This document shows positions 23,921 to 24,029 of a stretch of 64,000 bases of DNA, piece by piece. Numbering within the stretch: the first letter of the stretch is position 1; every line of letters starts with the position of its first letter. The notes below the pieces were generated by a model, which saw nothing but the letters and a program-made list of their open reading frames with translations, did not search any database and was not told the DNA's origin. Position numbers and translations under genes: made by a program. Source of the DNA: a virus (taxonomy: Duplodnaviria; Caudoviricetes); the IMG/VR virus record IMGVR_UViG_3300034993_000085, positions 5,479 to 69,478 of that record, one strand, 5' to 3'.

Positions 23921-24029
23921 GGGGCGCTCGCCCAATGGCAGGGCAGATATCTTCCCTCTTCAATAACTAGCCAGCAATGGCCGACCGAGAAGGGTTATCC
24001 AGTTTCAGGTTCGAATCCTGAGCGCTCCA
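23921..24029 (+). ncRNA. tRNA-scaffold RNA whose anticodon arm is a Ro-binding Y stem (permuted YrlA-like)
   Basis: Acceptor GGGGCGC/GCGCUCC, D arm GCCC/GGGC, canonical UUCGAAU T loop; arm contains ACUAGCCA-GCAA-UGGCCGA and AGGGUUAUC. Confidence 0.7.

What the first reader, a model, noticed from the sequence alone, without database searches (positions are those of the whole stretch)
23921..24029. tRNA-Y RNA chimera: apparent circular permutation of YrlA
Seen: open acceptor stem, D arm and canonical UUCGAAU T loop, but the anticodon arm is a ~55-nt stem ending in ACUAGCCA-GCAA-UGGCCGA. That is the Ro-binding helix with its strands in reversed order, capped by a GNRA loop. It shares AGCAAUGGCCGA (12 nt) with the adjacent Y RNA 4. 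Known: YrlA has the Ro stem open and the acceptor stem closed. Inference: this is the opposite permutation, with true tRNA ends that RNase P and CCA-adding enzyme could process, and perhaps an evolutionary intermediate between tRNA and YrlA.
Basis: partly seen in the sequence, partly recalled or inferred. Interest (0 to 1): 0.7.

Follow-up and report, generated by a model that had tools for sequence, protein, structure and literature searches.

The report
tRNA-shaped Y RNA beside phage Ro60
A phage gene just upstream of its Ro60 (rsr) gene encodes an RNA with a complete tRNA body whose anticodon arm is replaced by a loop-capped copy of the Ro60 docking helix; it belongs to a large family found next to rsr genes in many bacteria and phages, which I could not find in Rfam 15 or in the papers I could read.

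Summary
Window 23921-24029 (+) has a 7-bp open acceptor stem, a D arm, a UUCGAAU T arm and the tRNA tertiary nucleotides. A 54-nt arm (23946-23999) ends in CUAGCCA-GCAA-UGGCCGA. This is the Y RNA Ro-binding helix with its strands swapped and capped.

It is not a one-off chimera. A scan that allows inserts finds 157 such long tRNA-like genes in 160 rsr loci, all on the rsr strand. A reversed-sequence control gives 2. Their arms share U(U/C)G(C/U)C-cap-GG(C/U)CG...GGUUAYC.

An arm model built without the window has its best hit in the window on this arm (E 0.0045). In four whole genomes all 12 arm hits lie beside rsr. In 121 genomes of one phylum, 17 of 18 arm carriers have a TROVE gene.

The window's element belongs to a short subtype with no anticodon loop. 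In that subtype 10 of 12 members keep G3:U70, usually with A73, the alanine identity set.

[quoted passage not shown] No expression or binding data exist. Its role as an evolutionary intermediate is untested.

The scan has noted similar tRNA-shaped RNAs with a Ro60 handle before, on other DNA.

The parts
23921..24029 (+). The tRNA-shaped Y RNA (the finding): acceptor 5' strand, D arm, capped Ro-handle arm, variable loop, T arm, acceptor 3' strand and discriminator A
   Evidence: ARAGORN with inserts allowed makes its only call in the window here. Model R1, built from another genome, scores 47.6 bits, E 4e-10.
23921..23927 (+). Acceptor stem 5' strand GGGGCGC, pairing with 24022-24028; the third pair is G3:U70
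   Evidence: Sequence; ARAGORN drawing; acceptor table.
23930..23944 (+). D arm: stem GCCC/GGGC and loop AAUGGCA with A14, A15 and G18G19
23946..23999 (+). 54-nt arm that replaces the anticodon arm. It has a base helix GAUA/UAUC, a CCC(UCUUC)/(GAGAA)GGG helix, an internal loop, and the capped Ro helix.
   Evidence: Constrained fold. Arm model R3, built from 59 arms of other genomes, has its best hit in the window at 23951-23999: 19.0 bits, E 0.0045.
23967..23984 (+). Ro-binding-type helix with swapped strands: CUAGCC (3'-strand motif), cap A-GCAA-U, and GGCCGA (5'-strand motif with the bulged C)
   Evidence: Sequence. The family consensus is U(U/C)G(C/U)C-cap-GG(C/U)CG in 59 of 59 arms. The 12-mer is shared with the next Y-like RNA.
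23992..23999 (+). GGGUUAUC motif, shared as GGGUUACC with the three open Y-like RNAs of the cluster. Here its UAUC forms the 3' strand of the arm's base helix.
   Evidence: GGUUAYC is present in 51 of 59 family arms. The same motif appears in the Rfam sbRNA consensus aligned to the second Y-like RNA.
24005..24021 (+). T arm: stem UCAGG/CCUGA and loop UUCGAAU
24022..24029 (+). Acceptor 3' strand GCGCUCC plus discriminator A73. The next bases are CCG, so CC is encoded and the final A is not.
23602..23677 (+). Context: Y-like RNA 1 with open topology. Its 5' strand carries GGGCCGAAAG and GGGUUACC; its 3' strand carries CUUGUC.
23690..23790 (+). Context: Y-like RNA 2 with open topology
   Evidence: Rfam nematode stem-bulge RNA model (a Y RNA homologue): 37.1 bits against a gathering score of 38, E 8.8e-6. 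Fold z = -2.95.
23841..23917 (+). Context: tRNA-like 1. It has no anticodon loop (a long stem with a 4-nt loop instead) and also carries G3:U70 and A73. It lies 3 nt upstream of the finding.
   Evidence: Rfam tRNA 45.6 bits; not called by default ARAGORN; sequence; fold.
24031..24145 (+). Context: Y-like RNA 4 with open topology. It starts 2 nt after the finding's discriminator, shares AGCAAUGGCCGA with it, and contains a degenerate T-arm-like hairpin.
24162..24189 (+). Terminator-like hairpin (GGGGCUU/AAGCCCC) followed by UUUU, closing the RNA cluster
   Evidence: Sequence. The same hairpin is drawn; the pattern scan reports an overlapping site.
24218..25942 (+). rsr, a full-length Ro60 orthologue of 574 aa
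   Evidence: Pfam TROVE 3.4e-43 and vWA_Ro60 6.1e-63. Solved Ro60 structures: 1YVP E 2e-128, 9NEN, 2NVO.

Best explanation
The element is a non-coding RNA gene for a tRNA-shaped Y RNA. It is probably co-transcribed with three ordinary open-ended Y-like RNAs and a second tRNA-like RNA, just upstream of the phage's Ro60 gene.

Shown from sequence and comparison: it has a full tRNA core in the normal 5'-to-3' order. Its anticodon arm is replaced by an arm whose tip is the Ro60-binding helix (GGCCGA with a bulged C opposite CUAGCC), closed by a GCAA loop. It belongs to a family that occurs almost only beside rsr.

Inferred:
1. The tRNA core folds into an L shape, as the YrlA tRNA-like domain does.
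2. RNase P cuts 5' of G23921. The 3' end is trimmed to A24029 and completed to CCA. These cuts also release the flanking RNAs.
3. The phage Ro60 docks on the capped helix, mainly through the GGCCGA strand.
4. The tRNA body is then the effector-binding module, as in YrlA.

More speculative: its subtype keeps G3:U70 and A73 and has no anticodon loop, so alanyl-tRNA synthetase could charge it, as it charges tmRNA. That would link Ro60 to EF-Tu or the ribosome, or protect the 3' end.
For: - Cloverleaf and tertiary nucleotides. ARAGORN with inserts makes only this call in 64 kb.
- Model R1, built from another genome, hits only this site in the window and in the whole phage.
- Family size: 157 long tRNA-like genes in 160 rsr loci, all on the rsr strand, in 62 of 80 bacterial and 16 of 80 viral loci. 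The reversed-sequence control gives 2. Rfam's tRNA model scores many of them above its gathering score.
- Arm consensus: U(U/C)G(C/U)C-cap-GG(C/U)CG in 59 of 59 arms, GGUUAYC in 51, and the published GNCGAA(N0-1)G motif in 22.
- Arm pairing: 92.2% of cells paired, against 85.1% in shuffles and 29-57% when the partner is slid; 7 pairs change on both sides.
- Arm model R3, built without the window, has its best window hit on this arm.
- Linkage to rsr: 12 of 12 genome-wide arm hits lie inside rsr loci in four genomes totalling 27.7 Mb. In one phylum, 17 of 18 arm-carrying genomes have TROVE, against 13 of 103 genomes without arms (Fisher p 8.6e-12).
- The neighbouring gene is a full Ro60 orthologue.
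- Neighbouring Y-like RNAs share GGCCGA...GGGUUAYC, and one nearly reaches the Rfam sbRNA gathering score.
- Alanine set: G3:U70 in 10 of 12 short-subtype members while pairs 5-7 covary, against 15 of 481 ordinary tRNAs in the same loci.
- Precedent: M. smegmatis YrlA, with a 7-bp acceptor stem, is cut by RNase P and receives CCA in vivo (PMC4201824).
Against: - There are no transcript, processing, binding or charging data for this or any family member.
- The cloverleaf is 6 kcal/mol above the predicted minimum-energy fold, and the arm alone is not unusually stable.
- The window's arm is a divergent member. The single-sequence arm model R2 missed it. R3 gives only 19 bits, with a rough E-value.
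- The arm has A opposite G where the family has a U-G wobble, and GCCGAC where the published motif has GNCGAA.
- Whether Ro60 tolerates a cap on the side where Y RNA termini normally lie is unknown.
- CCA is not fully encoded (ACCG).
- No close relative of this phage was found, so there are no compensatory changes for this particular sequence.
- Family members are related, so the counts are not independent events.
- G3:U70 could be inherited from a tRNA-Ala ancestor and not selected.
Confidence: 0.65

Rival explanations
1. Processing punctuation only. The tRNA-like body exists solely so that RNase P and 3' processing enzymes cut the polycistronic precursor and free the real Y RNAs, as mascRNA does for MALAT1. 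On this reading the arm has no ligand of its own.
For: The element is packed between neighbours with spacers of 3 nt and 2 nt. Cutting at its ends would create the 3' end of tRNA-like 1 and the 5' end of Y-like RNA 4.
Against: A mere cleavage signal needs no arm. Yet the Ro-type motifs of the arm are invariant in 59 of 59 homologues across phyla, the arm helices covary, and the arm is found genome-wide only beside rsr. The two roles are not exclusive.
Confidence: 0.12
2. The RNA serves a partner other than Ro60. For example, it could be a decoy or sponge for host tRNA-targeting nucleases or for tRNA-modifying or repair enzymes, with the conserved arm recognised by another protein.
For: Phage tRNA-like genes are often linked to tRNA-directed conflicts. 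About half of the long-subtype relatives keep canonical 7-nt anticodon loops with varied anticodons. One arm in genome G050 lies far from rsr.
Against: The conserved bases are exactly those of the Ro-binding helix and of the published Rsr motif (PMC4201824). Co-occurrence with TROVE is 17 of 18. The window's element has no anticodon loop to act as a decoy.
Confidence: 0.1
3. It is a tRNA precursor. The arm is an intron-like insert that is removed, for instance by a nuclease plus an RtcB-type ligase, to give a working tRNA.
For: ARAGORN can model it as tRNA(CAA) with a 35-nt intron. RtcB ligases are linked to rsr in many bacteria (10.1101/312249).
Against: The ARAGORN solution splits the anticodon at a non-canonical site, has a U-U mismatch in the stem, and lacks the long variable arm of bacterial tRNA-Leu. 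No bacterial tRNA splicing endonuclease is known (10.1101/312249). The insert carries a conserved protein-binding-type motif and not a splice structure. I found no RtcB among the ten window ORFs scanned.
Confidence: 0.05
4. Misreading of units. The real RNA is an ordinary YrlA, with T arm, closed acceptor hairpin and D arm, that straddles two adjacent tRNA-like units.
For: Rfam YrlA gives a weak hit at 23877-23956 that joins the T arm of tRNA-like 1 to the D arm of the finding (16.8 bits, E 1.9). Chen 2014 warns that tandem tRNAs produce exactly this false positive.
Against: The would-be closed acceptor hairpin has 3 pairs at most, and cmscan marks it as non-pairing. The score is far below the gathering score of 69. 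tRNA-like 1 has no Ro motif upstream of its T arm. Both units have perfect 7-bp acceptor stems in the tRNA reading. In other genomes the units are 63-66 nt apart, which a straddling reading cannot explain.
Confidence: 0.03

Closest known systems
YrlA-type bacterial and phage Y RNAs (Rfam RF02553; Chen et al. 2014, PMC4201824; Wang et al. 2018, 10.1101/312249)
   Same: Both are encoded beside rsr on the same strand. Both have a Ro-binding motif related to GNCGAA(N0-1)G, and a tRNA-like module with D arm, T arm, acceptor stem and the tRNA tertiary nucleotides.
   Different: The connectivity is the circular permutation. YrlA has the T arm before the D arm, a closed acceptor hairpin, and a Ro stem made by its 5' and 3' ends. 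Here the order is that of a tRNA, the acceptor is open, and the Ro helix is capped. The RF02553 score is 16.8 against a gathering score of 69.
Mycobacterium smegmatis YrlA after processing (Chen et al. 2014)
   Same: It has a 7-bp acceptor stem that RNase P cleaves, followed by CCA addition in vivo. The result is a Y RNA with genuine tRNA-type ends.
   Different: There the product is a two-piece RNA, open at both the acceptor and the Ro stem. Here a single chain would have tRNA ends, because the Ro helix is closed by a loop.
Metazoan Y RNAs and nematode stem-bulge RNAs (Rfam RF00019, RF01656)
   Same: They share a bulged helix of the GG(U/C)CCGA / UUG(A)C type and a following GGGUUAUC-like motif. 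The sbRNA model nearly reaches its gathering score on the neighbouring Y-like RNA 2.
   Different: Those RNAs have no tRNA body, and their Ro helix is formed by the RNA termini.
tmRNA tRNA-like domain
   Same: It is a tRNA mimic with no anticodon that carries G3:U70 and is alanylated through acceptor-stem recognition alone (my own knowledge; Chen 2014 draws the comparison with YrlA).
   Different: The element here has no mRNA-like region or pseudoknots, ARAGORN makes no tmRNA call, and charging is untested.
Band-7-associated tRNA-like RNA (b7a-tRNA; Burroughs and Aravind 2016, as summarised in 10.1101/312249)
   Same: [quoted passage not shown]
   Different: I could not read the paper here. 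The summary mentions no Ro-binding helix in the anticodon arm. Overlap with the present family cannot be excluded.
Circularly permuted tRNA genes of red algae and archaea (Soma 2007 and others, cited in 10.1101/312249)
   Same: They show that both connectivities of a tRNA fold exist in nature.
   Different: Those are precursors converted into working tRNAs by splicing enzymes. Nothing suggests that here.

Membership tests
YrlA (Rfam RF02553) | Encoded within a few kb of rsr on the same strand | tested here: met
   The element ends 189 nt upstream of the rsr start at 24218, on the same strand.
YrlA (Rfam RF02553) | T arm lies 5' of the D arm, with a closed acceptor hairpin between them; the Ro stem is formed by the RNA's own 5' and 3' ends | tested here: not met
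   The D arm (23930-23944) precedes the T arm (24005-24021). The acceptor is open and the Ro helix is capped by GCAA.
YrlA (Rfam RF02553) | Reaches the family's gathering score | tested here: not met
   The best overlapping hit scores 16.8 bits against 69, and it bridges two units.
YrlA (Rfam RF02553) | GNCGAA(N0-1)G motif near the 5' end | tested here: not met
   The arm has GCCGAC at 23980-23985, which is internal and differs at the sixth base. Y-like RNAs 1 and 2 in the same cluster do carry the exact motif.
YrlA (Rfam RF02553) | tRNA tertiary-interaction nucleotides (U8, A14, G18G19, T-loop, R15:Y48) | tested here: met
   All are present, and the Levitt pair is A15:U48.
Canonical tRNA (Rfam RF00005) | 7-bp acceptor stem, D arm and T arm in cloverleaf order | tested here: met
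   ARAGORN drawing.
Canonical tRNA (Rfam RF00005) | 5-bp anticodon stem with a 7-nt loop that presents an anticodon | tested here: not met
   A 54-nt arm ending in a GCAA tetraloop takes its place. ARAGORN's intron solution is contrived. Default ARAGORN makes no call, and RF00005 gives no hit on this strand at E up to 10.
rsr-linked tRNA-shaped RNAs with a capped Ro handle (delineated here; no published name found) | tRNA core in tRNA order with a long insert in the anticodon arm | tested here: met
   Model R1, built from L122, scores 47.6 bits.
rsr-linked tRNA-shaped RNAs with a capped Ro handle (delineated here; no published name found) | Arm reads U(U/C)G(C/U)C - cap - GG(C/U)CG ... GGUUAYC | tested here: met
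   GGCCG and GGGUUAUC are present. The 3'-strand motif is CUAGCC, one base off the consensus. R3 has its best window hit at 23951-23999: 19 bits, E 0.0045.
rsr-linked tRNA-shaped RNAs with a capped Ro handle (delineated here; no published name found) | Lies beside rsr on the same strand | tested here: met
   At family level.
Y RNA, defined functionally as a Ro60 ligand | Bound by Ro60/Rsr through the bulged helix | not testable with these tools
   Supported only by motif identity and gene linkage.
Alanine-accepting tRNA mimic (tmRNA-like identity) | G3:U70 with A73 in a 7-bp acceptor stem | tested here: met
   Found in 10 of 12 short-subtype members, against 15 of 481 ordinary tRNAs.
Alanine-accepting tRNA mimic (tmRNA-like identity) | 3' CCA end and aminoacylation by AlaRS | not testable with these tools
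   The genome encodes ACCG, so CCA would have to be completed after transcription. No biochemical data exist.

The most novel reading that the evidence does not exclude
The short subtype, including this phage RNA and perhaps the adjacent anticodon-less tRNA-like 1, is a chargeable Y RNA. [quoted passage not shown] It would then carry Ro60, and any nuclease tethered to it, to EF-Tu or the ribosomal A site. That would give Ro60-based RNA surveillance direct access to ribosomes, in the way tmRNA gains access. During infection the phage would use this on host or phage RNA. The family would also be the un-permuted ancestor from which YrlA arose by tandem duplication.
Probability: 0.2. Interest if true: 0.85.

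Novelty: new variant of a known kind. Interest (0 to 1): 0.66.

Why it matters
Bacterial Y RNAs are known as tRNA mimics with a closed acceptor stem. What their tRNA-like module binds, and how they arose from tRNA, are both open questions (Chen 2014; Wang 2018).

A large rsr-linked family with the un-permuted tRNA connectivity bears on both:
- It supplies a concrete partner form for the published dimeric-tRNA origin model. Two such units in tandem would yield a YrlA-type unit whose Ro stem comes from the two arms.
- It predicts that many Ro60 ligands have genuine tRNA ends.
- Through the conserved G3:U70 of the anticodon-less subtype, it makes aminoacylation of a Y RNA directly testable.

It may also explain why earlier searches found few YrlA RNAs in delta-proteobacteria and cyanobacteria. 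Those searches discarded hits that overlapped tandem tRNA genes.

On the practical side, these genes are likely to be missed, or annotated as intron-containing tRNAs or pseudo-tRNAs.

Tried and rejected
- Close relatives of this phage locus: none found. There was no DNA match in the phage collection. Single-protein scans of viral and metagenome contigs gave nothing above about 52% identity.
- A pattern scan for the capped motif in viral contigs gave one locus, L002. It has no tRNA core and no R3 hit, so I set it aside as unclear.
- MAFFT alignments of the short subtype (A2, A3) put helices out of register. I therefore did not use them for models.
- The single-sequence arm model R2 did not reach the window. 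Only the 59-sequence model R3 did.
- R1 also hits plain tRNAs, so its score mainly reflects the tRNA core. I did not use it as evidence for the arm.
- The sigma-70 pattern scan found no promoter in 23300-24400. The TGcTATGAT extended -10-like site near 23588-23596 is only my reading.
- Rejected readings: a YrlA straddling two units, an intron-containing tRNA, and a chance cloverleaf (see rivals).
- Literature: Burroughs and Aravind 2016 and the Sim et al. 2020 review could not be opened. Searches on YrlA, Ro60, Y RNA, tRNA-like and aminoacylation found no description of this topology.

Full report
**Setting.** The window is part of a 69.5-kb virus record that CheckV rates as complete. At 24218-25942 (+) it encodes a full-length Ro60 orthologue. 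Pfam gives TROVE 3.4e-43 and vWA_Ro60 6.1e-63. The solved Ro60 of Xenopus (1YVP) matches at E 2e-128, and human RO60 and Deinococcus Rsr also match. The nearest Rsr proteins come from Myxococcota (Kofleriaceae, Haliangiales) at 57-59% identity.

A dense RNA cluster lies on the same strand in the 650 nt upstream:
- two open-ended Y-like RNAs (23602-23677 and 23690-23790);
- a hairpin;
- a 77-nt tRNA-like RNA (23841-23917);
- the finding (23921-24029);
- a third Y-like RNA (24031-24145);
- a terminator-like hairpin.

The second Y-like RNA nearly reaches the gathering score of Rfam's nematode stem-bulge RNA family, a Y RNA homologue (37.1 bits against 38). All four Ro-motif RNAs share GGCCGA, then 7-8 nt, then GGGUUAYC.

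**The observation.**
- The acceptor stem pairs 23921-27 with 24022-28 over seven base pairs.
- U8, A14, G18G19, G53:C61 and the UUCGAAU T loop are all there, and A15:U48 forms the Levitt pair.
- Between the D arm and the variable loop lies a 54-nt arm. Its tip is CUAGCCA-GCAA-UGGCCGA.
- The 12-mer shared with the next Y-like RNA occurs only at those two places in the window.

Default ARAGORN and the Rfam tRNA model do not call the element. With inserts allowed, ARAGORN makes exactly one call in 64 kb, and it is this one. The predicted minimum-energy fold is not the cloverleaf: -43.1 against -37.0 kcal/mol. That is common for tRNAs but remains a caveat.

**It is a member of a family.**
- I collected 80 viral and 80 bacterial loci around Rsr homologues.
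- The insert-tolerant scan finds 157 long tRNA-like genes in them, with a median length of 128 nt. Every one is on the rsr strand. They occur in 62 of 80 bacterial and 16 of 80 viral loci. Reversed sequences give 2.
- Rfam's tRNA model scores many of them above its gathering score as tRNAs with a large insertion. No YrlA hit reaches its gathering score in the 20 loci tested.
- When the inserts are aligned on the Ro motif, they read ...CUUGCC(C/U) - variable capped stem - GGGCCG(A)... - 5-6 nt - GGUUAYC. This is the bulged Ro helix (U-A, U-G, G-C, bulged C, C-G, C-G) with the 3' strand first and a cap where a Y RNA has its termini.
- The cap stems differ in sequence and length but stay paired.

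**Tests of the arm.**
- An arm-only model grown from one Armatimonadota element found 59 arms in the bacterial loci, all on the rsr strand.
- In that alignment 92.2% of cells pair, against 85.1% in shuffles and 29-57% when the partner is slid. Seven pairs change on both sides. The alignment is fitted to the model, so it leans towards the structure.
- All 59 arms carry GG(C/U)CG and U(U/C)G(C/U)C. GGUUAYC is present in 51, and the exact published Rsr-associated motif GNCGAA(N0-1)G in 22 (PMC4201824).
- The model rebuilt from these 59 arms contains no window sequence. With filters off, its best hit in the whole window is at 23951-23999, the finding's arm (19.0 bits, E 0.0045, rough).
- Its fourth hit (E 0.78) bridges the 3' end of Y-like RNA 1 and the 5' end of Y-like RNA 2. 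This shows directly that the arm equals a Y RNA 3' strand plus a Y RNA 5' strand.
- The window's arm is a divergent member. It has CUAGCC where the consensus has CUUGCC, and GCCGAC where the consensus has GCCGAA.

**Linkage to Ro60.**
- In four whole genomes totalling 27.7 Mb, all 12 arm hits lie inside the rsr loci.
- In 121 genomes sampled from one phylum, arms occur in 18 and TROVE genes in 30. Seventeen of the 18 arm carriers have TROVE, usually within about 1 kb on the same strand.
- Only 1 of 91 genomes without TROVE has an arm, and that one is on a short contig (Fisher p 8.6e-12; the genomes are related, so this is not a count of independent events).
- One arm, in G050, lies far from rsr.

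**Two subtypes.**
- Most members are about 125 nt long and keep an anticodon-type stem-loop after GGUUAYC. In them the handle is an extra arm that interrupts the 5' strand of the anticodon stem. In 33 of 64 the loop is a canonical 7-nt loop with U33 and R37, and the anticodons vary.
- The finding belongs to a shorter subtype of 106-125 nt (most 106-115 nt) in which UUAYC itself closes the arm and there is no anticodon loop.
- Ten of the twelve short elements have G3:U70, and nine of those also have A73. Acceptor pairs 5-7 and the T stem covary.
- The twelve come from Armatimonadota, Chloroflexia, Haliangiales/Myxococcales and other MAGs (metagenome-assembled genomes), and from this phage.
- Among 481 ordinary tRNAs in the same loci, G3:U70 occurs 15 times, and 10 of those are tRNA-Ala.
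- G3:U70 with A73 is the alanine identity set. AlaRS ignores the anticodon, which is why tmRNA can be alanylated (established knowledge).
- The adjacent tRNA-like 1 also lacks an anticodon loop and also has G3:U70 and A73.

**Mechanism proposed.**
- Shown: the sequence architecture, the family membership and the rsr linkage.
- Inferred:
  1. The RNA is co-transcribed with its neighbours.
  2. RNase P cuts 5' of G23921, the 3' end is trimmed, and CCA is completed. The genome encodes ACCG.
  3. The core folds into an L shape.
  4. The phage Ro60 docks on the capped helix through the GGCCGA strand.
  5. The tRNA body acts as the effector module.
- The precedent is M. smegmatis YrlA. Its 7-bp acceptor stem is cut by RNase P and extended with CCA in vivo (PMC4201824).
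- Alanylation is a further, weaker inference.

**Comparison with the literature.**
[quoted passage not shown] They are proposed to derive from dimeric tRNA transcripts (10.1101/312249).
- The present topology is the un-permuted counterpart.
- Two such units in tandem would give a YrlA-order unit: Ro 5' strand, T arm, acceptor strands joined by the spacer, D arm, Ro 3' strand.
- That fits the published model, but it does not establish which form came first.
[quoted passage not shown] That may be why this form is absent from their account.
- I found no description of it in Rfam 15 or in the searchable papers.
- I could not open Burroughs and Aravind 2016. Their Band-7-associated tRNA-like RNA is said to lie occasionally beside Rsr.
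- Earlier notes of this scan report tRNA-shaped RNAs with Ro60-type handles in other phages. Those are unchecked AI notes that agree with this reading. They are not independent evidence.

**Verdict.** I classify the element as a new variant of a known kind, a Y RNA / tRNA mimic with tRNA connectivity and a capped Ro handle. The testable extra is that its subtype carries alanine identity.

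Noticed in passing
window 23841-23917: A 77-nt tRNA-like RNA lies 3 nt upstream of the finding. Rfam tRNA scores it at 45.6 bits and default ARAGORN does not call it. Its anticodon arm is a long stem with a 4-nt loop and no anticodon, and it also carries G3:U70 and A73. It is a second possible alanine-identity mimic in the same cluster.
   Followed up: partly
L083-L162, e.g. L109, L162, L120, L151: In many Myxococcota and some other genomes, rsr sits inside dense same-strand tRNA arrays. 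The 160 loci hold 486 ordinary tRNA calls on the rsr strand and 7 on the other. The handle-bearing tRNA-like genes are interspersed among them.
   Followed up: no
e.g. L143:2261-2387, L162:4376-4501, L152:1721-1908: Long-subtype relatives keep a canonical 7-nt anticodon loop (CAU, GUU, UUU and others). The Ro handle branches from the 5' strand of the anticodon stem. Whether these still act as tRNAs is open.
   Followed up: partly
L135:2228-2400: An RNA in YrlA order occurs in the same locus as three tRNA-order units. It has GGGCCGA, then GGGUUACC, then a T arm with GGUUCGAAUCC. Both connectivities therefore coexist beside one rsr. Rfam RF02553 does not reach its gathering score there.
   Followed up: no
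G050:C1:2682140-2682188: This is the one strong arm-model hit (E 1.6e-7) that lies about 1.7 Mb from that genome's rsr. It is an exception to the linkage.
   Followed up: no
L002:295-332 (minus strand), IMG/VR contig of 9875 bases: The sequence is GGCUAGCC-cap-UUGGCCGACCGAG...GGGGGUUACC. It shares UGGCCGACCGAG with the finding's arm but has no recognisable tRNA core and no arm-model hit. It could be a degenerate relative or a chance match.
   Followed up: partly
window 14685-19638: Nine type-P5 twister ribozymes (47.7-58.1 bits) sit between short same-strand ORFs about 4 kb upstream of the Ro60 cluster. The scan has already noted them on this genome. Their cleavage products end in 2',3'-cyclic phosphate, which may be relevant to Ro60 and RNA-repair biology.
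   Followed up: no
window 24100-24116: Y-like RNA 4 contains a T-arm-like hairpin: stem GCGGG/CCCGC with the 6-nt loop UUCGCC. This recalls the T arm reported in YrlB.
   Followed up: no
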